This document shows, one piece after another, positions 1,640-17,504 of a stretch of 18,202 bases of DNA. Origin of the DNA: a virus; UHGV virus genome UHGV-0153103; one strand, 5' to 3'. The notes beneath the pieces are model-generated. The model saw only the letters and a program-made list of their open reading frames with translations, was not told the origin of the DNA and ran no database searches. The translations under genes and the position numbers were made by a program. Within the stretch, counting starts at the first letter, position 1; every line of letters begins with the position of its first letter.

Positions 1640-1656
1640 TTTTTGCACCTCCATTT

Positions 1657-1670
1657 ACAATATTTCTTGT
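1657..1670. promoter_or_regulatory. Operator OL2 (ACAATATTTCTTGT)
   Basis: ACAA-N6-TTGT 14-mer. Confidence 0.75.
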
Positions 1671-1698: not shown

Positions 1699-1737
1699 TA
1701 AGCCATCAGCAGGACGCACTAACCACCATGAAGGTGA

Positions 1738-1768
1738 TGCTCTTAAAAATTTAGCCCTGAAGAAGGGC
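1738..1768 (+). promoter_or_regulatory. nutL: boxA-like TGCTCTTAA and boxB GCCCTGAAGAAGGGC
   Basis: boxB hairpin identical to lambda nutL boxB as recalled; surrounding sequence closely lambda-like. Confidence 0.8.
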
Positions 1769-1878
1769 AGCATTCAAAGCAGAAGGCTTTGAGTAGCGCG
1801 AAATGCAGCTGCAAGACAGCAACCGTGGAGATAAGCATCACGGCGCGTTACTCAAAGCTAACTGACAGGAGAATCCAG

Positions 1879-2205
1879 ATGGATGCACAAACACGCCGCC
1901 GCGAACGTCGCGCAGATAAACAGGCTCAATGGAAAGCAGCAAATCCCCTGTTGGTTGGGGTAAGCGCAAAACCAGTTAACCGCCCTATTCTCTCGCTGAA
2001 TCGCAAACCGAAATCACGAGTAGAAAGCGCACTGAATCCAATAGACCTTACAGTGCTGGCTGAATACCACGAACAGATTGAAAGCAACCTGCAACGTATT
2101 GAGCACAAGAATCAGCGCACATGGTACAGCAAGCCACGCAGTGAAATGGGTGTGACCTGTTCAGGCCGCCAGAAAATGAAATTAGGCAGCAAACCACTTA
2201 TTTGA
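1879..2205 (+). CDS. N: Antitermination protein N (lambda-type, arginine-rich motif)
   Basis: MDAQTRRRERRADKQAQWKAANPLLVGVSAKPVNRPILSLNRKPKSRVESALNPIDLTVLAEY... is near-identical to lambda N with scattered substitutions; preceded by GGAGAATCCAG-ATG as in lambda. Confidence 0.9.
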   Translation: MDAQTRRRERRADKQAQWKAANPLLVGVSAKPVNRPILSLNRKPKSRVESALNPIDLTVLAEYHEQIESNLQRIEHKNQRTWYSKPRSEMGVTCSGRQKMKLGSKPLI

Positions 2206-2216
2206 GAGGAATTAAT

Positions 2217-2840
2217 ATGTCATCAATCCGCTTAACTACGAGAATGAAAGAGGAAATCGCTCGTAACGCTTTAATTAAGTCTGGGGTTTTCACTGAACTT
2301 GAAGAAGTAACAAAGTTAAAGAACCAGCTTGCACTTGACGCCAGAGTTATTGCGTTTGGCGGTAAAAAGAAAACTGAGGAAGTGGATCAGTTATCATCCA
2401 AGTTAGTAGCTATAAGTGAAGAACTTGAAAAACTGGGATGTTCATTTTACTCATACGATGTTCGTTCTACATCAATTTATCTGACTGTATCTGGCAGAAG
2501 AGTTGGCTGGCATTCATACGGAAAAGACGGCAACGGTGAAGATATATTGCTCCCCACCCCAGAAGAAGATAAATGCATGTTTGACGCAGAACACGAAATA
2601 ACAAAAAGGTTTGATGAAATCTGCGCATTGCAACAAAAACTTGAAGCCAAGAAAAAGGATATCGAATCAAATGTATGGGCTGCTTTGAACTCATTCACAA
2701 CAGTTAAGCGACTTATTGAAGTTTGGCCTGAAAGCAAAGAGTTGCTACCAAAAGAAGCAGATAAAGCAAGTACAGCACTTCCTGCTTTACGGGTAGAAGA
2801 TTTGAATAAGATGATTGGACTTCCTTCCGAGGCCGCATAG
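2217..2840 (+). CDS. Hypothetical protein (207 aa) in the ral/sieB slot between N and cIII
   Basis: ATG at 2217 with GAGAGGA ribosome-binding site; protein-like composition; followed immediately by an intrinsic terminator; no family recognised. Confidence 0.65.
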   Translation: MSSIRLTTRMKEEIARNALIKSGVFTELEEVTKLKNQLALDARVIAFGGKKKTEEVDQLSSKLVAISEELEKLGCSFYSYDVRSTSIYLTVSGRRVGWHSYGKDGNGEDILLPTPEEDKCMFDAEHEITKRFDEICALQQKLEAKKKDIESNVWAALNSFTTVKRLIEVWPESKELLPKEADKASTALPALRVEDLNKMIGLPSEAA

Positions 2841-2855
2841 TCGGCCTTTATTTTT
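2830..2855 (+). terminator. Rho-independent terminator (tL1-like): stem AGGCCG/CGGCCT, loop CATAGT, then TTTATTTTT
   Basis: 6-bp GC-rich stem with the stop codon of the upstream gene in the loop, followed by a T-run. Confidence 0.7.
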
Positions 2856-3064
2856 GGCATAAACAACAGAATAAACACTGCACTGTGTATTCATTCCAAC
2901 GAGTGAATACACGGAGCAATGTCGCTCGTAACTAAACAGGAGCCGACTTGTTCTGATTATTGGAAATCTTCTTTGCCCTCCAGTGTGGGGGCTTTTTTAT
3001 ATGCATACCAATAACGCTTCACTCGAGGCGTTTTCGTTATGCAATCAAACAGAAGGAGCATCCT

Positions 3065-3235
3065 ATGCAACAGTTCGCTATTGCAGGGGCGGCATCGGTT
3101 CGCCCTTTCAACCCGATTTTATCGGTACAGCATTCACGAAAAAATATTTTAACCGGAGCAGACTTTAAACAACCAAGAATGAAAAGTTTGCTCGAAAAGC
3201 TTTGGGATATTTTGAAACAACAAGGCCGTCCATGA
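3065..3235 (+). CDS. cIII: CIII-like protein (56 aa; putative FtsH/HflB inhibitor)
   Basis: MQQFAIAG... N-terminus and ...KSLLEKLWDILKQQGRP resemble lambda CIII (MQYAIAG... ...LIDILNQPG) as recalled; AGGAG ribosome-binding site; position after N as in lambda. Confidence 0.5.
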   Translation: MQQFAIAGAASVRPFNPILSVQHSRKNILTGADFKQPRMKSLLEKLWDILKQQGRP

Positions 3236-3390
3236 GTTTTACGGATAACTGGTCAGACGAAGAATTCATTCGTCAGATGAAAGAATTAATCGGTAACGAA
3301 GGAGATATTCATGTCACTTGCAACCACAGTGAAGGAGAGCAAGTTACAGAGACGCATGTACACGCAGAAAGCTCTCTGGTATCGCCATAA
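3232..3390 (+). CDS. Small protein (52 aa) in the kil position, unknown function
   Basis: ATG overlaps the cIII-like stop (ATGA), as kil overlaps cIII in lambda; the sequence does not match lambda Kil as far as I can recall. Confidence 0.4.
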   Translation: MSFTDNWSDEEFIRQMKELIGNEGDIHVTCNHSEGEQVTETHVHAESSLVSP

Positions 3391-3489
3391 TGGCGACCGC
3401 GAAGGAATGCGGGTATGCCTTAATTTGTCCCGAGTCGAAGTATTAAATCAGCGTTATTTCCTTGGGCCGTGTCCATTCTGAGGTGAATT

Positions 3490-4197
3490 ATGGATTTGAA
3501 CAAATTCGATGAGCCATTCAGCCCTGAAGATATCGAATGGCGAATACAGCAAAGCGGTAAAACACGCGATGGCAAGGTGTGGGCTATGGTGCTGGCTTAT
3601 GTCACGAACCGGGCAATCATGAAGCGCCTGGACGATGTTTGCGGCAAAGCAGGATGGCGCAATGAATACCGCGATATTCCCAACAACGGCGGAGTTGAAT
3701 GCGGCATATCAATCAAGATTGATTCCGAATGGGTAACCAAATGGGATGCTGCTGAAAACACGCAGGTAGAAGCCGTCAAAGGCGGTCGTTCCGGTGCAAT
3801 GAAGCGCGCTGCCGTTCAGTGGGGAATCGGTCGGTATCTGTATAACCTTGAGGAAGGTTTTGCACAAACATCTCTCGATAAAAAGCAGGGATGGCACAGG
3901 GCAAAACTCAAGGATGGAACAGGATTTTACTGGCTCCCTCCATCGCTGCCGGGATGGGCAATCCCAGCATCAGATAACAAACCATCACCAGAAAATACCA
4001 ACCAGAAATCTCCATCGGTTGACTGCGAACAAATCCTGAAAGACTTCAGCGATTATGCGTCAACAGAAACTGACAAGAAAAAACTCATCGAGCGTTATCA
4101 GCGTGACTGGCAATTAATGGCTGGCAACGAGGAGGCGCAGGCTAAATGCGTTCAGGTAATGAACATCAGAGTTAACGAACTAAAACAGGCGGCATAA
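3490..4197 (+). CDS. Rad52-like single-strand annealing protein (Sak/Rad52 family)
   Basis: Motifs VWAMVLAYVTNRAIMKRLD and KGGRSGAMKRAAVQWGIGRYLY are typical of phage Rad52-type annealases; GAGGTGA ribosome-binding site; immediately followed by ssb. Confidence 0.65.
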   Translation: MDLNKFDEPFSPEDIEWRIQQSGKTRDGKVWAMVLAYVTNRAIMKRLDDVCGKAGWRNEYRDIPNNGGVECGISIKIDSEWVTKWDAAENTQVEAVKGGRSGAMKRAAVQWGIGRYLYNLEEGFAQTSLDKKQGWHRAKLKDGTGFYWLPPSLPGWAIPASDNKPSPENTNQKSPSVDCEQILKDFSDYASTETDKKKLIERYQRDWQLMAGNEEAQAKCVQVMNIRVNELKQAA

Positions 4198-4713
4198 ATG
4201 GCAAGCAGAGGCGTAAATAAGGTGATCATTATTGGTCGCCTTGGGCATGATCCAGAAATCAGATATTCACCATCAGGAACGGCATTTGCAAACCTTACCG
4301 TTGCTACGTCAGAACAATGGCGTGATAAGAAAACTGGAGAGCAAAAGGAGCAGACGGAGTGGCACCGCGTGGTAATGAGCGGGAAACTGGCAGAAATTGC
4401 CAGCGAATATCTGCGAAAAGGCTCTGAGGTTTATCTTGAAGGCAAATTGCGGACAAGAAAATGGCAGGATCAAAGCGGACAGGATCGGTTCACTACCGAA
4501 GTCATCGTGGGCGTTGGTGGAACCATGCAAATGCTTGGTGGCAAGCAAGGAGGCAATGAACAGTCTTCACCTCAGCGAAATAATGGTCAGCAACAAAGAC
4601 AGCAACCTCAGCAGCAGGGAAATCACAGCGAACCACCTATGGATTTTGACGACGATATCCCCTTTGCACCAGTAACTCTCCCCTTCCCTCGTCACGCTAT
4701 TCACGCAATTTAA
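4198..4713 (+). CDS. ssb: Single-stranded DNA-binding protein (OB fold, Gln/Gly-rich linker, acidic DDDIPF tail)
   Basis: [44 protein letters not shown]... and C-terminal ...MDFDDDIPF are hallmark SSB features; start abuts the upstream stop (TAAATG). Confidence 0.9.
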
Positions 4714-4721
4714 GGACTTAC

Positions 4722-5270
4722 ATGAATCACTTGATGGTTGACCTTGAAACAATGGGCAACGGGCCATACGCGCCAGTTATTTCTATTGGGGCGGTATTCT
4801 TTGACCCGAATACCGGAGAAACAGGAGAAGAGTTCTCGGTAAATATCTCGCTTGAATCATCAATGCGATATCGAGCGCGTCCTGACGCTTCAACGATTTT
4901 ATGGTGGCTGGAACAGAGTGAAGAAGCCAGAAAATCGCTAACCAGCAACACTCAGGAGCTTTCAACGGCTCTTTCATGGTTATCTGAATTCATCATAAAG
5001 AACGCTAACCACAAATTCGTTCAGGTTTGGGGGAATGGAGCATCATTTGACTGCGTTATTCTCCGAAACAGTTATTCGCTGACAGGGCAGCCAGTTCCGT
5101 GGCAGTGGTGGAATGACCGCGACGTAAGAACAATCGTCGAACTTGGGAAGGTAATAGGATTCGACCCTAAGCGAGATATGCCATTCAAAGGAACTCGCCA
5201 CAACGCGCTTGATGATGCCATTCACCAAGCCAAATACGTTTCAGAGATCTGGAAAAAGTTAGCTAAATAA
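4722..5270 (+). CDS. DnaQ-like 3'-5' exonuclease (DEDDh family)
   Basis: Exo motifs VDLETMG (D-x-E), WGNGASFDCVIL (D) and HNALDDAIHQAKY (H-x4-D); AAGGA ribosome-binding site; an alternative start at 4734 is possible. Confidence 0.7.
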   Translation: MNHLMVDLETMGNGPYAPVISIGAVFFDPNTGETGEEFSVNISLESSMRYRARPDASTILWWLEQSEEARKSLTSNTQELSTALSWLSEFIIKNANHKFVQVWGNGASFDCVILRNSYSLTGQPVPWQWWNDRDVRTIVELGKVIGFDPKRDMPFKGTRHNALDDAIHQAKYVSEIWKKLAK

Positions 5271-5286
5271 TCAACAGGAGAAAACC

Positions 5287-5580
5287 ATGCCAGCGCCTCT
5301 GTATGGTGCGGATGACGCGCGCCGCTGTTCCGGCAATTCCGTATCGGAGGTGCTGGATAAATTCAGAAAAAACTACGATCAGATAATGTCGCTACCGCAG
5401 GAAACGAAAGAGGAAAAGGAATTTCGCCATTGTATATGGCTTGCAGAGAAAGAAGAACTCGAGCGAATTTACCAGACATCAATCCGACCATTCCGCAAAG
5501 CCACATATACCCACTTCCCTGAAATTGACCCGCGCCTGCGTAATTACCGCTCACGCTATGGCGCTATCAGTAATGACTGA
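5287..5580 (+). CDS. Hypothetical protein (97 aa)
   Basis: AACAGGAGA ribosome-binding site, co-directional packing in the operon; no family recognised. Confidence 0.5.
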
Positions 5581-5590
5581 GGAATTTACC

Positions 5591-5755
5591 ATGAGAGGAC
5601 TTGCATACAATCCCGGCATTCTTCCGGCAGAAATGATTATTCGCCAGCGCGTAAAGCCAATGCCATCGAGAGAGGAATTGCTAAAGAGAAATTCTTTTCC
5701 ATCAGTGAATCAAAACAAATATCTGAATGCGATGTGGCGGAGTGGGAAGAAATGA
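5591..5755 (+). CDS. Hypothetical small protein (54 aa)
   Basis: GAGGA ribosome-binding site 7 nt before the ATG at 5591; stop overlaps the next start. Confidence 0.4.
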
Positions 5756-6138
5756 AACAAATGTCACTAATTGAGATGGATGGTTTTCTGAAAGGTAAAT
5801 GCATCCCACGAGATTTAAAGGTTAACGAAACAAACGCTGAATATCTGGTGCGTAAATTTGCTGAAGCGGAGGCCAAGTGCGCGGCGCTGGCAGCGGATAA
5901 TGCGGCGCTTAAACAGTCGGAGAAGGAATTTAATAACTTCTGTCGTCAGGAGTACTACGGTTGGGAGGACAACTTCACGGAAACCCCAGCCACCGATGCT
6001 TTCCTGGCTGAAGTACGGGCGCAGGGTGTGGAGATGGCTATGGAGCATATGCAGTCGAGCGGTTCGTTAACATTTGGAGATTGCTACATATCACTTAACG
6101 AGTTCGCCGCAGAGCTTCGCAAAGGAGGTAACCAGTGA
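5752..6138 (+). CDS. Hypothetical protein (128 aa; an alternative GTG start at 5734 gives 134 aa)
   Basis: ATG at 5752 overlaps the upstream stop (ATGA); coiled-coil-like A/E/K-rich segment; no family recognised. Confidence 0.5.
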
Positions 6139-6434
6139 GTGTATATCTCATTGATAAACGCCGACGTGGGCAACAAATACCACCTGTAGGAATTCCGAAT
6201 CACACATGGTTTTGCGTACTTGATATCGATGGCATGGATAAGTTTGTTGACACTCGTCATTACTGCGATACCGCAACAGCTACTCCGGCGAAAGCAAAGA
6301 AAATGGCTGCTCTGATAGAAAACTGGACTCCACCTGATGGGTGGTGCAATGGGAATGATCGAGATTGGCATGAAAAAATGAAGGGCTATATCTGCGATTT
6401 CTTACGTAAATGCAACGGCTTCAGGGTGATGTGA
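6135..6434 (+). CDS. Hypothetical protein (99 aa, GTG start)
   Basis: AAAGGAGG ribosome-binding site 5 nt upstream of the GTG at 6135; overlaps the upstream stop; cysteine/tryptophan-rich. Confidence 0.5.
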   Translation: MSVYLIDKRRRGQQIPPVGIPNHTWFCVLDIDGMDKFVDTRHYCDTATATPAKAKKMAALIENWTPPDGWCNGNDRDWHEKMKGYICDFLRKCNGFRVM

Positions 6435-7273: not shown

Positions 7274-7789
7274 ATGGCATTAACACACCGCGAACTCTGT
7301 CAGATTGCGTACAAGTTCCTTAAGCGCAACGGGTTCAAGGTTTGTTTTCATGACCGCTTTATAGCTGTAACCAGTACCGGAGAACAGCCAGATGCTATGG
7401 GATTCAGAAATTCAGCATCATGCCTGATAGAGGCGAAGTGTTCTCGTGCTGACTTGTTAGCAGATAGAAAAAAGCGTTTTCGTAAAAATCCGTCTCTTGG
7501 AATGGGCGACTGGCGATTCTTTATTAGTGAGCCGGGAATTATTTCAATTGAGGATTTACCACCTGGCTGGGGGTTACTTCACGTTGTTAACGGAAGAGTA
7601 CGGAAAGTACATGGGTGGCCCAAGGGTAATTGCTGTTGGGGTAATCCTGACGATAAGCCATTTACTGGAAATAAGCAGGTTGAATGCGATTACATGTTAT
7701 CTGCATTAAGGCGCATGGAGTTGAGAGGGCACCTTAATGAAATATATGACGGTGTAATTGTTAATAAGAAAGAAGGAAACGCGGCATGA
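7274..7789 (+). CDS. Putative PD-(D/E)xK-type nuclease-like protein
   Basis: Candidate catalytic motif GEQPD-AMGF...CLIEAKCS (PD ... E-x-K with about 13-residue spacing); otherwise unrecognised. Confidence 0.4.
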   Translation: MALTHRELCQIAYKFLKRNGFKVCFHDRFIAVTSTGEQPDAMGFRNSASCLIEAKCSRADLLADRKKRFRKNPSLGMGDWRFFISEPGIISIEDLPPGWGLLHVVNGRVRKVHGWPKGNCCWGNPDDKPFTGNKQVECDYMLSALRRMELRGHLNEIYDGVIVNKKEGNAA

Positions 7790-8712
7790 TCACTATTACC
7801 AAAGAGCGACTACTGACAATCAAGCAGTGGCGCGAAACATACGGACCTGGTAGCAACGTTGTACTGCCAGCAGAAGAAGCGGAAGAACTGGCACGAATTG
7901 CTCTGGCAGCGCTGGAAGCCGAGCCGATAGGTTTCCGTTGCAGGCGCAATGATAACCTTGGTGATTGGAGTTACGTATATCATCGAGAGCCAGATGATTT
8001 TGAGCGCAAACATTTAGTGATAGAGGGCATTTACGCCGCCCCTCCAGCACCAGTAGTACCGGAAGAAAAACCAATGCCTAATCCTCTTAGCATGTACGCG
8101 GTTGATGCTGTTGCCGCTATTGCAGAGGTGAGAGGCTGGAACGCCTGCCGTGCCGCTATGCTTCAGTCCGGAAACTTTCGGGAAAACAAGAATTCGTCAA
8201 CCAATAATTTTCGGGAAATCGCGGAAACGTCAACCAACTATCCGGTAATTCCTAGTGAGGTGTTGTCCGCAATCCTGAAGGTTGCCAAGATTCGTGCCGA
8301 TTTCGATGATTTTGACGGTGACAGGCGAGGTATCGGTGATTGTCTGGATGAGGCTGAGCAAGAGCTTATCGTTACCATTAACAAATATGCCAGTCAGTTG
8401 GCAGCAGAACCGATAGCGACTAATGACGTTCGAGAGCAAACAGCCGTTCCGCCAGTTCCGGTAACTCCGGATGGTTGGATAAGCTGTAGTGATCGAATGC
8501 CAGAAATGGGAGAGCGACAATGCTATGTGTTAGCTGCTGACTTTAAAAACAACTACCCACCAAACATCCCCAACACTCAGGTCGGCGTATATGGCGACTG
8601 GTTTAATGATGGCAAGCCCACTTGGGATGACGGTGATGGCGAAGACCTGCATCTCAAAGAAGTAACCCACTGGATGCCGCTACCAGAACCGCCGAAGGAG
8701 GTACGCCAATGA
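7786..8712 (+). CDS. Hypothetical protein with DUF551-like C-terminal domain
   Basis: C-terminal ...GWISCSDRMPE...VTHWMPLPEPPK resembles the DUF551 signature common in lambdoid early regions (from memory); last gene of the plus-strand operon. Confidence 0.5.
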   Translation: MITITKERLLTIKQWRETYGPGSNVVLPAEEAEELARIALAALEAEPIGFRCRRNDNLGDWSYVYHREPDDFERKHLVIEGIYAAPPAPVVPEEKPMPNPLSMYAVDAVAAIAEVRGWNACRAAMLQSGNFRENKNSSTNNFREIAETSTNYPVIPSEVLSAILKVAKIRADFDDFDGDRRGIGDCLDEAEQELIVTINKYASQLAAEPIATNDVREQTAVPPVPVTPDGWISCSDRMPEMGERQCYVLAADFKNNYPPNIPNTQVGVYGDWFNDGKPTWDDGDGEDLHLKEVTHWMPLPEPPKEVRQ

Positions 8713-8798
8713 CCTAGCCTGAAGCATTTGCAATTGTAGTGGCTGCCATTTTGATCGCACTGATTGTTTTTGCGATTTGCCGCTGGGGGTAAAATAGT

Positions 8799-9026
8799 TC
8801 ACCTGCATGGAGATTTGATGCCGGGGAATTGTGGGGGAGCATTCAAACCTCTCCCCTTCCCGGTTAAAGACTCCATTGCTTTGCGGTCAGAGAGATACAT
8901 CAGCTTCATCAGCTTCATCAGCTTCATCAGCTTCATCAGCTTCATCAGCTTAATGAAACGCATAGATCCGCCATGCTTTTTCAGCAAATACGCTGCCATT
9001 TGCGCAACTTTTTCTTCATTAAACAT
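8799..9026 (-). CDS. Small ORF (75 aa) containing (MKL)x6 from the tandem repeat; N-terminus reminiscent of Panacea/DUF4065 (SocA-like) proteins; possibly a truncated remnant
   Basis: MFNEEKVAQMAAYLLKKHGGSMRFIKLMKL...MYLSDRKAMESLTGKG resembles the conserved KLxKLLY N-terminal block of DUF4065 proteins as recalled; no strong ribosome-binding site; protein far shorter than that family. Confidence 0.3.
   Translation of the reverse strand: MFNEEKVAQMAAYLLKKHGGSMRFIKLMKLMKLMKLMKLMKLMYLSDRKAMESLTGKGRGLNAPPQFPGIKSPCR
8898..8951. repeat. Perfect tandem repeat, 9-bp unit CATCAGCTT x 6 (54 bp)
   Basis: Seen directly; in-frame for both strands (ISF on plus, MKL on minus). Confidence 0.97.
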
Positions 9027-9119: not shown

Positions 9120-9142
9120 GCCCCGCACTTCCGTACGGGGCC
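9120..9142. terminator. GC-rich hairpin (GCCCCG / CGGGGC) between the convergent operons, possible bidirectional terminator
   Basis: 6-bp G/C stem directly 3' of the giant gene stop; flanking U-run is weak on both strands. Confidence 0.3.
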
Positions 9143-9149: not shown

Positions 9150-12100
9150 TTAATCCACTCCCACTTTTTTGTTGTACTCGCGGTTAAACCGATCCACGGC
9201 AACCTTCATATCCCGCTCTACCGATTTCACCATCGCCGCCTGCTGCGCCAGACTGAGAGAACTGTCGGCATAAATGGCATCGCGCTGTTTGCGCAAATCC
9301 TTCAGTCTCTTCCGGGTATCCTGCATAAGCCCGTTCATCAACAATTTTCCGTTGTTCTCGTCAATGAACGCCGTTCTTTCTGCACCGGTCAGACTCTTCA
9401 GCTCTGCGTGATACTGCGCAACCTCTGTCATCCGGTCGTACATCTTCTGCTGGTCTGCATACGGCATCACCTCACCCGAAATTTTCCCCAGGAAGGGCAC
9501 CTGCTGTTCCGGTATATCAATACCATTCAGCGATTTCACCGCCGCATCCGTGGTTTTGGAAATGAAGCGCCCTGTCCCTCCGGAGATATAGTCAATCCAG
9601 AATTTCAGCGATTCCGGTGTGATATCCACCGCGCCGGGACGATACTGGCTGCCACCTGAGAACGCATTCAGCCAGGATGCAAACGCCTTGTACGCTTCTG
9701 GCGTTGAACGTCTTCCCAGCTGGCTGTCAGGTTTTGGTGTACCAAACGGCATGTTCTCCTGGTAAATCTGCGCCCCCATGAAGTTTTCATTCATGGCAAG
9801 GTTCGCAAACGGACGCAGAATGGTCGGTGCTGCGTTTTTCAGCAATGCCCCCGACAACGTTTCCGACGTCTCGCTGCCGATCGGGCTGAATGCTCCCAGG
9901 ATACCGCCGACAACATTACCGGCAGCACGTGAAGCAGTCAGGTCGCCCGCTGCCACACCTTCAGCTGTATGACCAAGCAGGAAGAACACGTTGTACCCGT
10001 AAGGCAGAGGAATACTCCAGTACTCACCGGCCTTGCCCCCGAACATCGATTTCATGATGACGAGGTTACGCTCTTTCACATGAGACGGTACTTTGTCGTA
10101 CCAGTTAACCCCGTCATCATCCTCACCCGCCACACTGCGGTTAAGCGAGCCAAGCAGATAACCCGCTCCCACAGCTGCAAGCACGATTTTCTGCGGTACA
10201 TTGAGATTCTTCCAGCGAAGGCGCTCCAGTAACGGCCCGTCGCCATTAAGATGTCCGAGCGTTCTCACCAGGTTTGCGGTCCCCTGAATGCTGGCGTTGG
10301 CAAACATGTACAGCGAGTTCATCAGCATCCCCTGCTCACCACGACGGTTAAAGTTCACCGTCATGTTTTTGGCAAGAGACGCCGCCTGCTGGCGTGACAA
10401 ACCGGCATCACGGGCGTGTTTATAGGCAGAAAGACGCAGAGCGTTTTCAACCGCGCCGTTGGCATCCTCGACCAGGTTCAGGAACGAATGCCATGCACCG
10501 ATACTCTGGCCTTTCCATCCGCCCTTCGCCAGCGACACAAGGCGATCCATTTCCTTCTGCTGGCCCTCAAGGTCACCCATGTTAAACCAGCCGGTTTTAC
10601 CTCCGTCCTCAACAAACTCTTTCCACACTTTCTGCCACTGTGCGCCTTTGCCCGTGAGGGTTTTACCCCGCAGACTTGCGTATACGGCTGACATGGCGGA
10701 ACGGCTGTCTTTCACCACAGCCAGCGCGGATAAGTTATCCAGCCCTTTCAGTTTGCCGTCGCTTCTTCCCTGCTCAGCCTTCAGGTTCATCACCGCAGTC
10801 TGCACGTCACGGATGAAGTTACTGACCAGAAATTCCGGGTTATACGACGTGTTCACCGTTGCCAGGAAGCGGTTAACTTTCCCCAGCGTACGGATTACGG
10901 CGTTACTGGTTTCCGGCCCCATGTTCTTCATCGCACGCATCAGGCGCGGATCATGAAGTTTAATGTAGTAAGTTTTGCCGTCCTTTTTGGTGGTGAAGTA
11001 GCGATCCGCCATCATTGCCATCGGCACAGGGCGCTCGACAACTTCGCGAATGGTTTCACCAGTTTCCTGGTCCTTGCGCTCTGCAATCACACGCATTGTA
11101 TCCGGTCTGTCATCAGTGAATACCTGCCAGTAATCCTTGTCGGGATTATCCTGTACCAGTTTCAGGAAGGCGTTACCCACTTCATTTTTGCGATTGCGGA
11201 TCAGCGATTCACTCAAATCCTGTATCGCCTGAGTGGAAGGAGACTGTGCGCGGGATGCACGCCCCATGGCCTGCTTACTTTCACGCCCGCCGATGGTGAA
11301 TCCCTTGCCTGTACGTGGCAGTGACACCACACCGTCAACATCCTGCCCTTTCAGGGGGACGTAGTAACGGTAGGCTTTCTGCCAGGCATCCACCACGCCG
11401 CTCTCTTCCAGTCCTGCCTCACGGATAATCTCACGGCGACGGGCCAGCATATCGTCAATAATCCCTGCCAGACGGTCATACTGTGCCTGTTTGCCGCTGT
11501 TACGCACACGCTGCATGATTTCCGCCGCTTCCGCGTTGGTCATCCCCGAACCGCCGTCCGGCATTTTCGGGTTGATTTTCGCAATATGCGCGTTACGTTC
11601 CGGCGCGTGACGGGCGTAGAGGTACTCATCCAGATCGGCCTGCGCAATTTTGTAGTCCGCCAGCAATTTGGCCAGCGGCTGAACGTAGCGCTCCTTCATT
11701 ACGTTCAGGTCGTTTTCCGCCTTCCCGTGGAAGAGTTCTTCAGCCATATAGGCGTTATTGCTGTCATCTATTTTTCCGCCAGTTTTACGGATATTCTCCT
11801 GCACCGCCTTCAGCACCTGGAATTTATCCTGCATCTGGCGAACAAAACGGGATGCAATTGTCTCTTCCGGCGTCAGACTGCTGGTGCGGGAGTAATACGG
11901 CCCCTTGCGAATATCTTCAGGATAGAGTATTTTATCTACAGAGCCGCGATAAGAATGTTCCCCTTTGGGCAATTGAAGCCCTCTGTGCAGAAGGTTATCG
12001 CGGCTTAATTTTTTCTTCCGGTAAAGCGTTAATCCGGCTTTATCCAGACTATTTGCCTTATTCATTCCTCCTTCCGTACCGTAAACCGAAGCTACCTTGT

Positions 12101-15100
12101 TGATTTCCAGGCGCGACCGGACAGCCTTCATGTGTACCGCTGACACTACAGGATCACCATTTTTATCCATGGCATCAAGCAGCATCACAACCGCATTTCT
12201 TTCTGTCGCGGAACGGTAAATTGCATCCGGATCGTGCATCAGTTCCGGTAGTCTCTCGATAACATCCATCGGCACCACATGTTTCACTCCATTGGTGGCC
12301 TTACGCACAGTGTCGCGGGAGATAACCAGCGGCAAATCTGGTGCGCCAAGGTGACGCAATACCGGCGGCGTACGCCCGATGTTTACCGTTAAATCTGTGG
12401 TGCGCAGAGACTTCATCATTCTGGCAAGGTCATCACGATAACGCTCGCCCTCACCTTCCGGCACTTTGAACGGATCAGGCTTACCGCTACGGGAGTACTG
12501 AGACGATGCGTCCGCGCCATCCTCACGCGGCGTGTAACCTTCCCGCACACGCTGGCCTAACGTGCGAATAGTTTCGCGAACAAGTCTGATATCGTTCAGT
12601 TCCGTCGGCTTCAGTAACCCCGTACGACGCAGTACCCCTTTGACCAGGGCAACAACACGCTCCCATGCCGCCACGAATTTAATCGGCTGCTTCTCTGCCA
12701 TATGCGCCAGAAATTCACCCGCCTGCACTTCCGGTGATTCCTTACCATAAGACGCATCAACCTTACGCCAGGCTTCACGGATGGTGGCGTTATCACTGTC
12801 ACGGGTTTTCAGCACGGTCTTAATAATCGTCTGATATTCCGCTGGCGTGACTACATGCTCCATTGCATGGTGAATAATCTCGTGACGTAACTTCTCGCGA
12901 ACGGTCCGCCCGTCAGGGATGTTATCCGCCACCAGGACAATTTCACGTTTATCCGGACGATAGAACGCGTGCACCTTGCCGTAACCGTCGAATGATTCAC
13001 CCGCCAGTGCTTCAGCCTCTTTCTGTGACTTCACCACGCGGACCTTCAGGTCACTGTCCTTAATGCCACTAATCACGCCACGGGCAACAGCTTCAACCTG
13101 CGGGACCGGACTGCCTTTGGCTTCCGCACTGCGGTTAACATCCGAAATCAGATTGCCTTCAGGTGTGCGGGTCACGCCCTTACGGGAATAAAACGCAACT
13201 CCCTTGTCCGTCTCACGGGTTTTCAGTGTTCGGAACAAGTGATCGAATGCCTCACGAATACCGCCATCCAGTTCTGCATTCGTCGGATAAGCGTAGGTGT
13301 CCGGCTGTCCATGGTCATCCGCCTTACGGATATTGACCAGATAATCATTCTCCACGCCAGCCATACGCGCTTTATCCTGAACATAACGCTCAAAGGCTCG
13401 CGCCGCCATTTCAACATCCGTTGACCAGTACGGTTTTGAACGAACGCCATCCAGGCGTTCAGAACGACGCAACATGTCACTGCTGTTAATGGCTTTCATC
13501 ACGCCTTTAAACGCGTCGTAAACCTCCTGACGTACCGGATATTCCGCATCAACATACCTGCCGTCTTTAAATACGCGCCCGGCACGCTGTGCTTCCGTCA
13601 TATAGTCGCCACCTGACGTGATCTTCCCGTCAGTGGAAACATCATAACGACCAAAATAATTATCCAGTGAATGGAACCATTCGTGGGCCAGCGCCCCCGG
13701 TCCGTTACCTTTTGTCAGGTTGATTGCCACCTCACCCGGCTCATAGTGTGCCGCCGCCTTACCCTTACCACGGGCACCAAAAGCAAGCCCAAGACGACCG
13801 TTCAGAGAAAGCGCTTTTGTCGGCACGTTCAGCACGTCAGCCAGGTCATGCAGCGAGTCATAAGCCCGGTTCAAATCAGCCTGACGACGCGGACTTTCCA
13901 CATAATTACCAAACTGCACACCACGAAAACCAAACGCATCACTGAACTGCTCCGGCGAAACATCCCCCTTGCGGCGTTCTGGTCCGGTACGATCGCGGTT
14001 GGTGGCGTTACGCTGCTCCTCACGCGAGACTTCACGCAGCGCCTTCACCTGATTAACCAGCTCATCACGATGTGTGCGCACATAATCATGTGCATCACGG
14101 GCAGACTCAAAACCGCCCTTCAGTTTCTGCCTGTTTTTGCCATAACCGATAAAAATGTCGCCACTGGCCTTATGCCGGTACACGTCAAAGGTTATTCTGT
14201 CATCAGCAGAGGTTGCTGGCGTTTCCCTTTCTCTGGAGCCTTGTTCATCGAAATATGCTTTCGCCTTTTTCAGTAACTCATCCCGGCTTTCCGAGAAAAA
14301 GAGGTCGCGCCCCTTGCTATCACGAAGCGAATACATCATTTGCGGCGGATCGTAACGTTTTCCCCCGACAAACGAATAAACACCGGACCTGACACGATAG
14401 CCGGATGCTTTATCAATCTGCAATGCAGAAAGCGTACGGAGCAGTTTCCAGGTATCCGACATGCTCCGTAACCCCGGCTTACTGTCCATCATATCAGCCA
14501 GTTTCGCTGCCGGAATTTTCCCCTCCAGCATACCGGCAGTAGCTTCGCGACCGCTTTTAACAATGCTGATCCATTTCTGCATGTTACGGCTTGTTCTGGT
14601 GGGAATTTCACTGCGATACAACGCCATCATTGCCAGCGTGTCACTATCCACACCTTCTTTTTCCAGACGGGCATAATCCGGCTTTGGAAACAGTTTGCTC
14701 AGTGGTTGTGTCGCGTACTCCCCATCCTCCAGCGTTTTACCCATAGCTTCAGCAAGCTGCGCATAACGGTGTTTTGCCGCGCCCTTAATCTCCTCGCCAA
14801 AGTCTTCAATTTTCGCACCACGCGCCTGCTGGTGAGTGCTCGGTTTATCTACCGGCACCGGCACCTCAGTATCCGGAACATCGGTTATGGTCTGGCGATT
14901 ATCCCCGGTCTGTCTGCGTGCTTCTGCCTGCTGTGCCAGTTCCGGAAGGGAGTCACGAACCATACGAGGGAGTGATTCAGGCTGTGGCATATCAACCCCA
15001 CGCTGACTTTCAGGTGCAGGAAGACCTTCACGCACTGGTGCTGTGGCGTTCTGCTCATCCGGTGACGGCAGACCACGACGAACTGTTTCGCCCTCCAGTA

Positions 15101-17504
15101 TTTCCCCCTGGCGACCAGCGGCATTTTCCGGTGCCTGCGCACGTCCTTTCTGGAAACTCTGGCCCTTCACCTCACCGGTTGTGGTAAAACGACCACCACG
15201 TCCGGCCTGATTTTCATCCGGCGTACGCGCTACTTCTCCTGGTAACGGATATCCCTGTCCGGGATGAATATCGCCGGGAGCGGGAAGGCGTGGACGCTCA
15301 GTTAACTCCTGTGCTGTCGGACCGGCATCACCTTCAGCCATCTGGGAACGCACCAGTTCTTCCGCCGTCGGCGCGTTGCCACGAGCAAGACGGGCCTGCA
15401 CTTCTGTATCATCCCCCGTAAAACCACGGAATCGCGGGTCACGCATGAACGCGGGCTGTTCCATCGGATCAGCATCAGTAATACGCTCTCCGTCAGCCAG
15501 AGTGTTAATGGTCTCCGTTGCCACATCTTCAGAGAACGCAGGATTATCCATTTCAACGGCATACTGATTCTCGCCTTTCTTCACTACGGACGGTTTCAGG
15601 CCGGTGGCGCTGGCATTGCGGAAAACGTCGCTCCCCAGAGCACTTTTTTCATCCGTGAAATAACGGTTGTCCGGACGCACCTTTTCAATGCGTTCTGCTG
15701 GTCTGGACGCACCACTCTCGTTAATTTCAATACGAACTTCATCCGGATCGCGGAACCGCACCGTCGGGTAAATACTCCCGTCGCCATCATCCGCATTTTC
15801 CGGCTGTGGCTGTGCCTCCGGTCTGGCCTCCCGCTGAGGGCGAAGCACATCACGTATTGCCTGTAACTGCTGCTCTTCAGTATCAGTACGCCCTTCCTTC
15901 TGGCTGAGTTTTCGGTATTCCTCAAGCAGTTCAGGGCGCGGCTTCGCCTTCAGCTCATCCATCACCGCCTGTCGCTTCGCCTGTTCATCCAGTTCATTCA
16001 ACAGCTGGCTGGCGGCTTCCCGGCGATGAACGGCAGACGTGTCTCCCTCATGTGCCATATCCGCATCAGCATACTGTTCCAGAAGCTGCTCGCGATTCAT
16101 CCCCTGCATAGATTCACGATGCTGTGCCACCGGATCAACCGGTTCGGGTTGCGGAGCCGATTCGTCCTGAGGAACGCTTTCAGCCTCACGCATGGCTGCT
16201 TCATCTGCCGCCTGACGTTTTCCACGATATCCGGCAGCCGCACCGAATGGTGCCCCCATTGCAGCACCAAGGGCTGCACCTTCGATCGTTGCGTCAGCCA
16301 CGCCCTCCCACGGTGACACATCCATTCCGGCGGTCTCACGCAATGCCGTGTTTTCCTGATAGCGTGAATAGCCACCCTGCGCCGCATTAATCGTCCCCTG
16401 TTCCGTGGCATTTCTGACAATGCCGCTTTTAACGGTCTTCGCCGTGCCCCGCATCGCCAGATTAAGCAACTGAGCATCGCCCAGTTTTGCCGCCATGGCA
16501 TTCACAGCCAGCAATTCAGGATCGGTTGCCAGCTGCGCACGCACCTCATCGGCAACACGCTCTTTTGCCAGGTCCATTTTCTGGCGGTCAGTAAGCTGCG
16601 CGTGCTGCGGATCTGCATCAATTGACAAAAAGGTCTGCTGAAATTTCGGTGACTTCGCCAGCTCAGAATAATCCGCGTTAAGAACAGCATCTGCCGCTGC
16701 CATTGCACTCCGCCCTTGCGCACTGACAGTGGAATGGGTGATCAGGCCTGCCTGGAAAAAATCCGGCATTTTTTTATCGACAGCTTCGGCTGCCAGTGCT
16801 GTGGCTCTTTCCGGCTGCATCCCTGCCGCGATGTATTTTTTCTCCAGCCCGGCGGTCAGCACTTTTCGCAGAGTGACATCACCCAGCTTTTTAGTCACAC
16901 CGCCTGCAACCATATCCGGTACAAGCGCACCAATCAGGTTAACCCCTTTCGCTACCCAGACCGCTGAATCATCATATCCTTCAGTCATCGGTGTATTCAG
17001 CGCCCGCTGCGCCCCCGGCGACATCTTGCCAGTCAGCCATTCATCCGAGGCTTTAGCGCCGCCACTGACGGCCTTGCCTGTGACCTTCAGACCTTTACCG
17101 ACAGTATCAGTAACCGCATTTTTTCCATCAGGCAGAGTGTCGATGACCTCATCCGCCCCCTTGCTGCCACCGACAAAAATATCCTGAACAGTTGCGACTC
17201 CCGGCAGCCCCATACGGCTGAACTCATTTAAAATACGTACCCCTGTTTTTACCGGGCTCTGAATCATCGCATCACCGAGTCCACGGGCCATTTCCCCTGT
17301 CCCCCGGACGGACTGGGCGACACCTTTCCCCATAGTTGGCAATACATCGCCCAGGCTGAACGACGTGCTGTTGTCCTTCCAGCGATTGGGATCGGAGAAA
17401 AACACATCATAGCTGTCAGTCTCTCCCGGCTGCTGAATGTTCAGGCTGTTGCGGCTCTGGTTGCCAAATTGCGCTTCAGGGCGCTGTTCATCGGAATAAG
17501 CCAT
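9150..17504 (-). CDS. Giant multi-domain protein (2,784 aa) with two HExxH zincin-like motifs; candidate virion-delivered or polyvalent protein
   Basis: Uninterrupted 8.35-kb ORF; GGAG 6 nt upstream of the ATG at 17504; HEWFH at 13671..13685 (residue ~1274) and HEIIH at 12870..12884 (residue ~1541); Pro/Glu/Gln-rich region about residues 430-900; hydrophobic Gly/Ala-rich segments near the C-terminus (about 10050..10200); no P-loop seen. Confidence 0.85.
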   Translation of the reverse strand: MAYSDEQRPEAQFGNQSRNSLNIQQPGETDSYDVFFSDPNRWKDNSTSFSLGDVLPTMGKGVAQSVRGTGEMARGLGDAMIQSPVKTGVRILNEFSRMGLPGVATVQDIFVGGSKGADEVIDTLPDGKNAVTDTVGKGLKVTGKAVSGGAKASDEWLTGKMSPGAQRALNTPMTEGYDDSAVWVAKGVNLIGALVPDMVAGGVTKKLGDVTLRKVLTAGLEKKYIAAGMQPERATALAAEAVDKKMPDFFQAGLITHSTVSAQGRSAMAAADAVLNADYSELAKSPKFQQTFLSIDADPQHAQLTDRQKMDLAKERVADEVRAQLATDPELLAVNAMAAKLGDAQLLNLAMRGTAKTVKSGIVRNATEQGTINAAQGGYSRYQENTALRETAGMDVSPWEGVADATIEGAALGAAMGAPFGAAAGYRGKRQAADEAAMREAESVPQDESAPQPEPVDPVAQHRESMQGMNREQLLEQYADADMAHEGDTSAVHRREAASQLLNELDEQAKRQAVMDELKAKPRPELLEEYRKLSQKEGRTDTEEQQLQAIRDVLRPQREARPEAQPQPENADDGDGSIYPTVRFRDPDEVRIEINESGASRPAERIEKVRPDNRYFTDEKSALGSDVFRNASATGLKPSVVKKGENQYAVEMDNPAFSEDVATETINTLADGERITDADPMEQPAFMRDPRFRGFTGDDTEVQARLARGNAPTAEELVRSQMAEGDAGPTAQELTERPRLPAPGDIHPGQGYPLPGEVARTPDENQAGRGGRFTTTGEVKGQSFQKGRAQAPENAAGRQGEILEGETVRRGLPSPDEQNATAPVREGLPAPESQRGVDMPQPESLPRMVRDSLPELAQQAEARRQTGDNRQTITDVPDTEVPVPVDKPSTHQQARGAKIEDFGEEIKGAAKHRYAQLAEAMGKTLEDGEYATQPLSKLFPKPDYARLEKEGVDSDTLAMMALYRSEIPTRTSRNMQKWISIVKSGREATAGMLEGKIPAAKLADMMDSKPGLRSMSDTWKLLRTLSALQIDKASGYRVRSGVYSFVGGKRYDPPQMMYSLRDSKGRDLFFSESRDELLKKAKAYFDEQGSRERETPATSADDRITFDVYRHKASGDIFIGYGKNRQKLKGGFESARDAHDYVRTHRDELVNQVKALREVSREEQRNATNRDRTGPERRKGDVSPEQFSDAFGFRGVQFGNYVESPRRQADLNRAYDSLHDLADVLNVPTKALSLNGRLGLAFGARGKGKAAAHYEPGEVAINLTKGNGPGALAHEWFHSLDNYFGRYDVSTDGKITSGGDYMTEAQRAGRVFKDGRYVDAEYPVRQEVYDAFKGVMKAINSSDMLRRSERLDGVRSKPYWSTDVEMAARAFERYVQDKARMAGVENDYLVNIRKADDHGQPDTYAYPTNAELDGGIREAFDHLFRTLKTRETDKGVAFYSRKGVTRTPEGNLISDVNRSAEAKGSPVPQVEAVARGVISGIKDSDLKVRVVKSQKEAEALAGESFDGYGKVHAFYRPDKREIVLVADNIPDGRTVREKLRHEIIHHAMEHVVTPAEYQTIIKTVLKTRDSDNATIREAWRKVDASYGKESPEVQAGEFLAHMAEKQPIKFVAAWERVVALVKGVLRRTGLLKPTELNDIRLVRETIRTLGQRVREGYTPREDGADASSQYSRSGKPDPFKVPEGEGERYRDDLARMMKSLRTTDLTVNIGRTPPVLRHLGAPDLPLVISRDTVRKATNGVKHVVPMDVIERLPELMHDPDAIYRSATERNAVVMLLDAMDKNGDPVVSAVHMKAVRSRLEINKVASVYGTEGGMNKANSLDKAGLTLYRKKKLSRDNLLHRGLQLPKGEHSYRGSVDKILYPEDIRKGPYYSRTSSLTPEETIASRFVRQMQDKFQVLKAVQENIRKTGGKIDDSNNAYMAEELFHGKAENDLNVMKERYVQPLAKLLADYKIAQADLDEYLYARHAPERNAHIAKINPKMPDGGSGMTNAEAAEIMQRVRNSGKQAQYDRLAGIIDDMLARRREIIREAGLEESGVVDAWQKAYRYYVPLKGQDVDGVVSLPRTGKGFTIGGRESKQAMGRASRAQSPSTQAIQDLSESLIRNRKNEVGNAFLKLVQDNPDKDYWQVFTDDRPDTMRVIAERKDQETGETIREVVERPVPMAMMADRYFTTKKDGKTYYIKLHDPRLMRAMKNMGPETSNAVIRTLGKVNRFLATVNTSYNPEFLVSNFIRDVQTAVMNLKAEQGRSDGKLKGLDNLSALAVVKDSRSAMSAVYASLRGKTLTGKGAQWQKVWKEFVEDGGKTGWFNMGDLEGQQKEMDRLVSLAKGGWKGQSIGAWHSFLNLVEDANGAVENALRLSAYKHARDAGLSRQQAASLAKNMTVNFNRRGEQGMLMNSLYMFANASIQGTANLVRTLGHLNGDGPLLERLRWKNLNVPQKIVLAAVGAGYLLGSLNRSVAGEDDDGVNWYDKVPSHVKERNLVIMKSMFGGKAGEYWSIPLPYGYNVFFLLGHTAEGVAAGDLTASRAAGNVVGGILGAFSPIGSETSETLSGALLKNAAPTILRPFANLAMNENFMGAQIYQENMPFGTPKPDSQLGRRSTPEAYKAFASWLNAFSGGSQYRPGAVDITPESLKFWIDYISGGTGRFISKTTDAAVKSLNGIDIPEQQVPFLGKISGEVMPYADQQKMYDRMTEVAQYHAELKSLTGAERTAFIDENNGKLLMNGLMQDTRKRLKDLRKQRDAIYADSSLSLAQQAAMVKSVERDMKVAVDRFNREYNKKVGVD

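What the first reader, a model, noticed from the sequence alone, without database searches (positions are those of the whole stretch)
8799..9026. Perfect 9-bp x6 tandem repeat encoding (MKL)6 inside a small Panacea-like ORF
Six identical CATCAGCTT units (8898..8951) sit in-frame in a 75-aa minus-strand ORF. Its N-terminus (VAQMAAYLLKKHGG...FIKLMKLMYLSD) resembles the conserved KLxKLLY block of DUF4065/Panacea antitoxin-like proteins, and the repeat expands exactly that motif. Perfect repeat identity suggests recent slipped-strand expansion, so the locus may vary in length between genomes. The ORF is much shorter than Panacea-family proteins, so it may be a remnant, or the repeat may serve a DNA-level role at the junction of the convergent operons.
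Basis: partly seen in the sequence, partly recalled or inferred. Interest (0 to 1): 0.6.

Follow-up and report, generated by a model that had tools for sequence, protein, structure and literature searches.

The report
Variable repeat in dead antitoxin gene
The six perfect 9-base repeats are real, but they are a slippage-prone length polymorphism inside the broken front end of a phage antitoxin (Panacea/PanA) gene, so this is an ordinary piece of gene decay, not a working system.

Summary
In detail: CATCAGCTT occurs six times, perfectly, at 8898..8951. It lies in frame in a 75-aa minus-strand ORF (8799..9026) of a 933W-type (Sepvirinae) phage. The ORF gets no Pfam hit. Its DNA, however, matches the 5' end of a 174-aa gene at the same position in phage PhiR5_2 and 18 E. 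coli genomes, and that gene hits PF13274 (Panacea) at E = 2.4e-19. Homology stops at window base 8870, where a DUF551/Ea22 module has replaced the rest. The remnant keeps helix 1, strand 1 and most of central helix 2. It lacks the GPV signature and has no partner gene. The repeat lies on the family motif KLxKLLY, which is itself two KLx triplets. Two copies is therefore the ancestral length: one copy is a contraction, and 3, 5 and 6 copies are expansions. Flanking SNPs indicate two independent 2-to-1 contractions and one sublineage carrying 3, 5 and 6 copies. Intact relatives elsewhere pair PanA with a 134-aa protein predicted to have a MazF fold. 933W carries a different, internally deleted wreck of both genes. 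I found no evidence for a DNA-level role. Interest is low to moderate.

The parts
8898..8951 (-). Variable-number tandem repeat: six perfect copies of AAGCTGATG (K-L-M), reading CATCAGCTT on the + strand
   Evidence: The same array has 1, 2, 3, 5 or 6 perfect copies in relatives whose flanks are conserved.
8870..9026 (-). 5' remnant of a PanA (Panacea-domain antitoxin) gene. It holds codons for helix a1, strand b1 and most of central helix a2, through ...YLSDRKAME.
   Evidence: The DNA is near-identical to the full-length gene of PhiR5_2 and E. coli G1/2 up to base 8870. The full-length gene hits PF13274 at E = 2.4e-19. The window ORF hits phrog_1281, the full-length family, at E = 2e-4 and phrog_3658, the remnant family, at E = 1.8e-38. 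Secondary-structure mapping comes from the AF2 model of homologue P0008.
8799..8869 (-). Unrelated read-through tail of the remnant ORF (SLTGKGRGLNAPPQFPGIKSPCR*). It is encoded by DNA of the neighbouring DUF551 module.
   Evidence: Homology to the full-length gene ends at 8870. In E. coli O104:H4 a 1-bp deletion changes this tail and extends the ORF to 91 aa, so the tail is not constrained.
8799..9026 (-). The whole 75-aa remnant ORF as called
   Evidence: No hit in Pfam (E up to 10), NCBIfam or PADLOC.
9120..9141 (.). GC-rich hairpin (GCCCCG...CGGGGC) between the stop of the giant gene and the remnant, identical in all allele classes
   Evidence: Sequence and invariant columns in A1. The terminator scan did not call it, because its loop exceeds 8 nt.
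9150..17504 (-). Upstream neighbour on the same strand: a 2784-aa polyvalent virion-type protein with LPD5, LPD1, MuF_C and LPD38 domains
7786..8712 (+). Convergent neighbour: the DUF551 gene, last gene of the early-left operon. Its module replaced the 3' three-quarters of PanA and the partner gene.
   Evidence: Full-length alleles are flanked instead by an IbrB/IbrA module.

Best explanation
The 75-aa ORF is the non-functional 5' stub of a PanA (Panacea-domain) antitoxin gene. That gene once formed a two-gene module with a toxin-like partner of predicted MazF fold. A mosaic recombination event replaced everything after codon ...RKAME with the DUF551/Ea22 early-left module, removing the GPV core of the domain and the partner gene. 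The family's conserved helix-2 motif KL(M/I)-KL(L/M)-Y is two KLx triplets. In this phage lineage the two triplets became identical 9-bp units (AAGCTGATG x2). Identical tandem units are a substrate for slipped-strand mispairing during replication, so the array now gains and loses whole units. Because the unit is 9 bp the frame is never broken, and because the gene is already dead nothing selects against length change. The window carries a +4-unit allele reached stepwise (2 -> 3 -> 5 -> 6) in one sublineage. What is shown: the homology, the breakpoint, the copy-number polymorphism, the haplotype structure, and the partner gene and its predicted fold. What is inferred: slippage as the mechanism, neutrality, and loss of function.
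For: The repeat and ORF are confirmed.

Homology and breakpoint: a full-length homologue sits at the same junction and scores PF13274 E = 2.4e-19, covering profile positions 2-112 of 113. DNA identity runs up to window base 8870 and then diverges abruptly. In the model of an intact homologue (pLDDT 92.8) the KLx triplets are residues 26-31 of central helix 24-42 and GPV lies at 57-59, beyond the breakpoint.

Ancestral length: 17 full-length homologues (32-98% identity) all have two KLx triplets except the Stx-phage allele. Outgroup codons are AAA CTG ATG AAG CTG CTG.

Copy numbers: the 18 full-length alleles have 1 copy. Truncated alleles comprise 42 E. coli genomes and 13 IMG/VR contigs with 2 copies, POCJ13 and 75/02 with 1, cM8a with 3, L032 with 5, and the window, L015 and L033 with 6. 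Every array is perfect.

Haplotypes: POCJ13 (n=1) has the same left-flank haplotype as four n=2 contigs. 75/02 (n=1) lies on a different n=2 background. The n=3, 5 and 6 alleles share a private SNP at window 9053 where that flank is held (it lies outside L015). The private SNP at 8752 was confirmed in cM8a, L015 and the window, and was not checked in L032 or L033.

Independent decay: 933W-type phages (about 115 E. coli records) have a ~395-bp internal deletion of PanA that leaves a 31-aa stub. Their L0135 is an internally deleted partner gene.

Partner gene: it lies immediately downstream (4-nt overlap or 3-nt gap) in every intact relative examined, in four different prophage sites. Its model (pLDDT 89) matches MazF structures. 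PanA paired with MazF/PemK-like toxins has been validated experimentally (PMC8832971).

No DNA-level signal: single-strand folding gives z = -0.36, and the 9-mer is not enriched elsewhere in the window.
Against: Loss of function is inferred, not measured. The ORF stays open in every truncated allele, though a 9-bp unit guarantees that. Its start codon and upstream region are conserved, though these alleles differ by only a few SNPs, so conservation is uninformative. The ancestral copy number within Stx phages cannot be proved. A history of 'one copy, then duplication' costs about as many events as 'two copies, then contractions'; I prefer the latter on the haplotype pattern and the family-consensus length. 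No read data were available, so ongoing instability within a population is untested. The MazF-fold assignment rests on a predicted model with weak Foldseek E-values (8e-3 or worse) and TM scores of 0.5-0.66. No sequence-level hit supports it.
Confidence: 0.88

Rival explanations
1. The stub is an expressed small protein in its own right, and the number of KLM units tunes its activity. It would be an in-frame contingency locus, for example an amphipathic cationic helix acting on membranes, or a decoy for PanA-type systems.
For: The ORF is open in all truncated alleles, and the start codon and upstream region are conserved. (KLM)n would extend a helix with a regular K/L/M pattern (inference from the model). 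Expansion occurred only in truncated alleles.
Against: In-frame maintenance is automatic for a 9-bp unit. The C-terminal tail is unconstrained: 91 aa in O104:H4 and a different 31-aa stub in 933W. No sigma-70-like promoter was found between the giant gene and the ORF. No family, defence or structure hit was found. The commonest states are 2 copies and the 933W-type deletion, not long arrays.
Confidence: 0.06
2. The array acts at the DNA level, as a binding-site array, recombination hotspot or termination element at the junction of the convergent late and early-left operons.
For: It lies between convergent operons. The left endpoint of the independent 933W deletion falls inside the same 9-bp unit (AAGCTGA|), which hints at local fragility.
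Against: Close relatives function with one or two copies. There is no exact copy elsewhere in the window, and one-mismatch copies occur at chance level, 5 against 5.3 expected. Single-strand folding is no better than shuffles, z = -0.36. The unit has no dyad symmetry beyond AGCT. In intact relatives the sequence is ordinary coding sequence for a conserved helix.
Confidence: 0.03
3. The six copies are an assembly or sequencing artefact.
For: Short tandem repeats can be miscounted by assemblers. One contig (L015) begins only 45 bases before the search-pattern match at the array.
Against: The array is 54 bp, shorter than typical reads. Three other independent assemblies, one IMG/VR isolate-derived and two ENA metagenomes, give 6, 6 and 5 copies on the same haplotype.
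Confidence: 0.01

Closest known systems
PanA antitoxins (Panacea domain, PF13274/DUF4065; Kurata et al. 2022, PMC8832971), including SocA
   Same: The ORF descends from a PanA gene. It has the same N-terminus (MFxEEKxAQMAAYLL...) and the same KLxKLLYLSDR helix-2 motif. Intact relatives sit in a two-gene locus with a downstream toxin-like partner less than 100 nt away. PanA paired with MazF/PemK-like toxins is a validated combination.
   Different: Only about 40 of roughly 185 residues survive, plus the repeat insert. The GPV signature, the beta-sheet and five of the helices are gone. There is no partner gene and no PF13274 score. It is a pseudogene fragment, not a family member in any functional sense.
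Bacterial VNTR / slipped-strand tandem repeats (the kind used as MLVA markers; contingency loci)
   Same: Perfect head-to-tail units. Copy number differs among near-identical genomes. Changes recur independently (homoplasy) and look stepwise.
   Different: The unit length is a multiple of three, so it cannot switch a gene on and off by frameshift, and the host gene is already inactive. No search of the held literature found it described as a typing marker.
933W L0135 and the unannotated 31-aa stub upstream of it (the O157:H7 Stx2 phage version of the same locus)
   Same: Same position downstream of the giant LPD gene, and the same PanA 5' end up to ...RFIKL.
   Different: The inactivating lesion is independent. 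A ~395-bp internal deletion with 2-bp microhomology removes the array's 3' part, and the partner gene survives as an internally deleted 62-aa ORF.
MazF/PemK/CcdB-fold type II toxins (applies to the lost partner gene, not to the window ORF)
   Same: The predicted fold of the 134-aa partner matches MazF structures from E. coli, S. aureus, B. subtilis and M. tuberculosis (probability ~1.0, TM 0.5-0.66). The gene order and overlap are typical of toxin-antitoxin pairs.
   Different: No sequence-level similarity. Toxicity and RNase activity are untested. The partner is absent from the window.

Membership tests
PanA / Panacea-domain antitoxin (PF13274) | Significant match to the PF13274 profile | tested here: not met
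   The window ORF gets no Pfam family even at E <= 10. The full-length homologue at the same locus scores 70.7 bits, E = 2.4e-19.
PanA / Panacea-domain antitoxin (PF13274) | Descent from a PanA gene (homology) | tested here: met
   Near-identical DNA to the full-length gene from the upstream intergenic region to base 8870. phrog_1281 E = 2e-4. The N-terminus matches the family consensus.
PanA / Panacea-domain antitoxin (PF13274) | Conserved GPV motif in strand beta-2, needed for neutralisation (PMC8832971) | tested here: not met
   The breakpoint at ...RKAME precedes the GPV position, which is residues 57-59 of P0008. The tail contains no GPV.
PanA / Panacea-domain antitoxin (PF13274) | Complete fold: central helix surrounded by five helices plus a three-strand sheet | tested here: not met
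   Mapping onto the pLDDT 92.8 model shows that only a1, b1 and most of a2 are encoded.
PanA / Panacea-domain antitoxin (PF13274) | Adjacent cognate toxin gene within about 100 nt in a conserved two-gene locus | tested here: not met
   tblastn of the 134-aa partner finds nothing in the window. The next gene is the convergent DUF551 gene. The partner is present in intact relatives.
Slipped-strand VNTR | Perfect head-to-tail units | tested here: met
   All alleles matched a pattern that requires perfect units between fixed flanks.
Slipped-strand VNTR | Copy number differs among close relatives with conserved flanks | tested here: met
   1, 2, 3, 5 and 6 copies, with flanks 99.4-99.8% identical for the 5- and 6-copy contigs.
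Slipped-strand VNTR | Recurrent or stepwise change on the genealogy | tested here: met
   Two n=1 alleles lie on different n=2 haplotypes. The n=3, 5 and 6 alleles share private SNPs.
Slipped-strand VNTR | Length heterogeneity among reads within one population | not testable with these tools
   No read data are available.
Phase-variable contingency gene | Repeat changes shift the reading frame or promoter spacing so that expression switches on and off | tested here: not met
   The unit is 9 bp, so the array is always in frame, and it lies inside the ORF, not in a promoter.
Iteron / protein-binding repeat array | Copy number and spacing conserved among relatives, with further copies of the site elsewhere | tested here: not met
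   Relatives have 1-6 copies. There is no exact copy elsewhere, and one-mismatch hits occur at chance level.
MazF/CcdB-fold toxin (lost partner gene) | MazF-like SH3-barrel fold | tested here: inconclusive
   The confident model (pLDDT 89.3) has MazF for its first 32 Foldseek PDB hits, but E >= 8e-3 and TM 0.5-0.66. No sequence or profile hit was found.
MazF/CcdB-fold toxin (lost partner gene) | Growth inhibition neutralised by the cognate PanA | not testable with these tools
   Needs expression experiments.

The most novel reading that the evidence does not exclude
The stub is translated, and the (KLM)n segment forms a length-variable cationic amphipathic helix with an activity of its own. 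It might be membrane-active, or a dominant-negative decoy against PanA-type modules of competing prophages. Repeat slippage would then give the phage an in-frame tuning knob.
Probability: 0.04. Interest if true: 0.6.

Novelty: new member of a known kind. Interest (0 to 1): 0.25.

Why it matters
The main value is better annotation. It explains a recurrent 'hypothetical protein' in O104:H4-type and Shigella Stx phages: 60-91 aa proteins such as WP_000481379.1 and WP_000481378.1. It also explains 933W L0135 and an unannotated 31-aa stub upstream of it. All are wrecks of one PanA plus MazF-fold toxin-antitoxin module, and that module was inactivated at least three different ways in this phage group.

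It gives a clean small example of how a conserved peptide motif that is an internal repeat (KLxKLLY) can turn into a slippage-prone DNA repeat once its two units become identical.

In practical terms, the locus is a 9-bp VNTR with at least five alleles in phages of the O104:H4 and Shigella Stx-phage type. It could add resolution to prophage subtyping.

The intact PanA plus 134-aa pair is found in several prophage moron and defence hotspots, and it is an untested candidate toxin-antitoxin or defence module.

Tried and rejected
- Pfam, NCBIfam and PADLOC on the 75-aa ORF found nothing. Only PHROG families built from the remnants themselves hit strongly.
- A global MAFFT alignment of 933W against the full-length gene misplaced the deletion. 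I replaced it with local BLAST.
- The promoter/terminator scan found no sigma-70-like promoter. It found two weak terminator-like sites inside the ORF, which I do not regard as meaningful.
- DNA-level role: single-strand folding of the array is no better than shuffles, and the 9-mer is not enriched elsewhere. Rejected.
- A hydrophobic + strand reading frame at 8709..8793 looked like a small membrane peptide. It has a conserved in-frame TAG and is frameshifted in relatives. Rejected as a gene.
- 933W L0135 as a live toxin needing this antitoxin: rejected. It lacks the central ~70 residues of the partner family, and it persists in all O157 phages where PanA is destroyed.
- The GTDB species-representative scan for alleles with two or more copies found nothing.
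- Literature searches for the repeat sequence, for Panacea in Shiga-toxin phages and for 933W L0134 found nothing relevant.
- Sequence search of the partner against PDB chains found nothing significant.
- I looked for an intact PanA plus partner pair directly behind a giant LPD gene and found none among the homologues sampled.

Full report
**Observation.** The window holds six identical, head-to-tail copies of CATCAGCTT at 8898..8951. Tandem Repeats Finder reports period 9, 6.0 copies, 100% matches and score 108. On the minus strand the unit reads AAGCTGATG (K-L-M). It lies in frame in the 75-aa ORF 8799..9026, MFNEEKVAQMAAYLLKKHGGSMRFI(KLM)6YLSDRKAMESLTGKGRGLNAPPQFPGIKSPCR. A run of 45 period-9 matches has a chance probability near 1e-23 for a window of this size.

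**Where we are.** The window is a 933W-type short-tailed lambdoid phage (Sepvirinae). The best matches are Shigella phages POCJ13 and 75/02 Stx. The ORF lies 123 nt downstream of, and on the same strand as, a 2784-aa polyvalent protein gene (9150..17504) with LPD5, LPD1, MuF_C and LPD38 domains. It is convergent with the last gene of the early-left operon. That operon reads, in order: CI-like repressor, N, Nmad5, Rad52-like, SSB, exoribonuclease, Abc2, DUF7739, Ea22, an unnamed gene, DUF551.

**Is it Panacea-like?** Scored directly, no. The ORF hits no Pfam family even at E <= 10, and nothing in NCBIfam or PADLOC. By descent, yes. Phage PhiR5_2 and E. coli G1/2 have a 174-aa gene at exactly this position. 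It scores PF13274 SocA_Panacea at E = 2.4e-19, covering profile positions 2-112 of 113. The window's DNA is near-identical to that allele from the stop of the giant gene through the codons ...YLSDRKAME, and then diverges abruptly. The last shared base is window 8870. What follows in the window is DNA of the DUF551 module. Full-length alleles are instead followed by an IbrB/IbrA module. The ORF is therefore a 5' remnant produced by a mosaic replacement.

An AlphaFold model of an intact homologue (P0008, pLDDT 92.8) shows what survives: helix a1, strand b1 and most of the central helix a2 (residues 24-42). The rest of the fold is lost. That includes the GPV motif at residues 57-59, which Kurata et al. 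call the signature of the domain and show to be needed for neutralisation (PMC8832971).

**What the repeat is.** I aligned 17 full-length homologues spanning 32-98% identity. The family motif is L-KL(M/I)-KL(L/M)-YLSDR, which is two KLx triplets at the start of helix a2. In the closest outgroup, an E. coli P2-like prophage at 69% identity, the codons are AAA CTG ATG AAG CTG CTG, so the two units are already 7/9 identical. The 2-copy allele (KLMKLMY) therefore has the ancestral length. One-copy alleles are contractions, and the window's six copies are a +4 expansion.

**Copy-number survey.** Among 176 matching records from 175 complete E. coli genomes there are three allele classes.
- Class A, full length: 18 records, all with 1 copy.
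- Class B, truncated like the window: 42 records with 2 copies and one (cM8a) with 3.
- Class C, 933W-type: about 115 records.

Outside that collection, POCJ13 and 75/02 are class B with 1 copy. Thirteen IMG/VR contigs are class B with 2 copies and one (L015) has 6. A metagenome scan for 3 or more copies found a 5-copy contig (L032) and another 6-copy contig (L033). These are 99.7-99.8% identical to the window over 9-11 kb. Every array is perfect, and every allele with more than one copy is the truncated form.

**Genealogy.** Flanking SNPs in class B (706 nt on the left, 335 nt on the right) give three results. POCJ13 (n=1) has exactly the left-flank haplotype of four n=2 contigs. 75/02 (n=1) lies on a different, otherwise n=2 haplotype. 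The n=3, 5 and 6 alleles share a private SNP at window 9053 wherever that flank is held. A second private SNP at 8752 was confirmed in cM8a, L015 and the window. The simplest history is an ancestral 2-copy state in class B, two independent contractions to 1, and one sublineage that climbed 2 -> 3 -> 5 -> 6. That is the behaviour expected of slipped-strand mispairing, where instability rises with copy number. The perfection of all units fits recent events. Slippage and neutrality are inferences; the polymorphism and the haplotype pattern are shown.

**A decaying two-gene module.** In every more distant intact relative examined, the PanA gene is followed by a conserved gene of about 134 aa, with a 4-nt overlap or a 3-nt gap. 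This holds in four different prophage sites:
- a P2-like prophage between gpA and portal;
- beside the integrase in a Yersinia prophage;
- a Mixta element;
- downstream of antiterminator Q and Bro-N in Salmonella-type lambdoids, next to ParDE or HigBA-like pairs.

The partner has no Pfam, NCBIfam, PADLOC or PDB sequence match. A confident model (pLDDT 89.3) has MazF from four species as its first 32 Foldseek PDB hits, plus CcdB further down (probability ~1.0, TM 0.5-0.66, E >= 8e-3). PanA paired with MazF/PemK-like toxins is an experimentally validated combination (PMC8832971). The ancestral unit was therefore most likely a PanAT toxin-antitoxin pair. That is fold-level inference, and toxicity is untested.

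In Stx-type phages the pair is broken in every class.
- Class B lost the 3' three-quarters of PanA and the whole partner.
- Class C (933W) has a ~395-bp internal deletion of PanA with 2-bp microhomology, leaving a 31-aa stub. Its annotated L0135 (62 aa) is an internally deleted partner that keeps the N-terminal 13 and about 36 C-terminal residues.
- Class A keeps most of PanA. It has a CAA->TAA change at codon 9 of the family-typical N-terminus, lacks one KLx triplet, and has its partner cut to 15 codons.

The protein database also holds further decayed class-A variants, including one with the GPV region deleted.

**DNA-level role?** I found no support. Close relatives carry one or two copies. 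The 9-mer has no other exact copy in the window, and one-mismatch copies occur at chance level, 5 against 5.3 expected. The single strand folds no better than shuffles, z = -0.36. In intact relatives the sequence is ordinary coding sequence for a conserved helix. The one oddity is that the left endpoint of the independent 933W deletion falls inside the same 9-bp unit. That may be coincidence or local fragility.

**A functional stub?** This cannot be excluded but is unlikely. The open frame is automatic for a 9-bp unit. The tail is unconstrained: a 1-bp deletion in the E. coli O104:H4 allele makes a 91-aa ORF. No sigma-70-like promoter was detected upstream. Nothing resembles a known small-protein family.

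**Known or new?** Panacea antitoxins, their pairing with MazF-like toxins, gene remnants at phage mosaic junctions and slippage-driven VNTRs are all well known. The literature held here describes neither this repeat nor a Panacea gene in Stx phages. This is therefore a new member of known kinds.

**Verdict.** The feature is ordinary gene decay plus a neutral VNTR. It has modest value for annotation and possibly for prophage typing. Interest 0.25.

Noticed in passing
L004 (phage 933W, AF125520.1) 1234..1422 minus strand, and the unannotated stretch just upstream of it: 933W L0135 (62 aa, 'hypothetical') is an internally deleted copy of the 134-aa partner of PanA, which has a predicted MazF fold. 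Immediately upstream lies an unannotated 31-aa PanA stub (MFNEEKVAQMAAYLLKKHGGSMRFIKLKQQR*) made by a ~395-bp deletion. The left end of that deletion falls inside the same AAGCTGATG unit.
   Followed up: yes
L024 5001..5941; L026 5001..5959; L029 5001..5975; L034 6001..7049; L035 3943..4877: An intact PanA (177-207 aa) plus a 134-142-aa partner, overlapping by 4 nt or separated by 3 nt, recurs in four different prophage moron sites. The sites are P2-like gpA-portal, beside an integrase, a Mixta element, and downstream of antiterminator Q next to ParDE or HigBA-like pairs. The partner has no family assignment anywhere but a confident MazF-like predicted fold. It is an uncharacterised candidate PanAT or defence module.
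   Followed up: partly
L003 1061..1612 minus strand (PhiR5_2); L008 2061..2585 (E. coli G1/2, WP_032270877.1): The 'full-length' Stx-phage PanA allele may itself be impaired. It has a CAA->TAA change at codon 9 of the family-typical N-terminus (translation restarts at the next ATG), lacks one KLx triplet in central helix a2, and has its partner gene cut to 15 codons. The protein database also holds further decayed versions: P0003 without the GPV region, and P0005, P0013 and P0017 truncated.
   Followed up: partly
L006 2455..2730 minus strand (E. coli O104:H4 C227-11): The 2011 outbreak lineage carries the 2-copy allele plus a 1-bp deletion. The deletion fuses the remnant to a downstream frame, giving the 91-aa 'hypothetical protein' WP_000481378.1.
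   Followed up: yes
window 8709..8793, + strand: This reading frame, MT*PEAFAIVVAAILIALIVFAICRWG*, would encode a small transmembrane-like peptide starting at an ATG that overlaps the DUF551 stop codon. Its third codon is a TAG conserved in all relatives, and several relatives are frameshifted. It is probably not a gene, and may be another relic.
   Followed up: yes
window 9120..9141: A GC-rich hairpin (GCCCCG...CGGGGC, 10-nt loop) lies just after the stop of the 2784-aa gene. It is identical in all three allele classes. It is probably the end of the late transcript, but it was not called by the consensus terminator scan.
   Followed up: no
window 9150..17504, minus strand: A giant 2784-aa polyvalent protein with LPD5 (1047-1190), LPD1 (1351-1430), MuF_C (1740-1832) and LPD38 (2467-2672) domains, plus an HExxH-like motif (HEWFH) that I saw by eye. 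It is frameshifted in at least one E. coli prophage, G1/2.
   Followed up: no
window 9053 and 8752: Two private SNPs mark the sublineage with expanded arrays. The SNP at 9053 was seen in cM8a, L032, L033 and the window. The SNP at 8752 was seen in cM8a, L015 and the window. With the repeat length they could serve as a lineage marker.
   Followed up: partly
window 542..6434, + strand: The early-left operon carries a CI-like S24/HTH repressor, N, an Nmad5 (nucleotide-modification-associated) protein, a Rad52-family recombinase, SSB, an Rv2179c-like 3'-5' exoribonuclease, the P22 Abc2-type anti-RecBCD protein and DUF7739.
   Followed up: no
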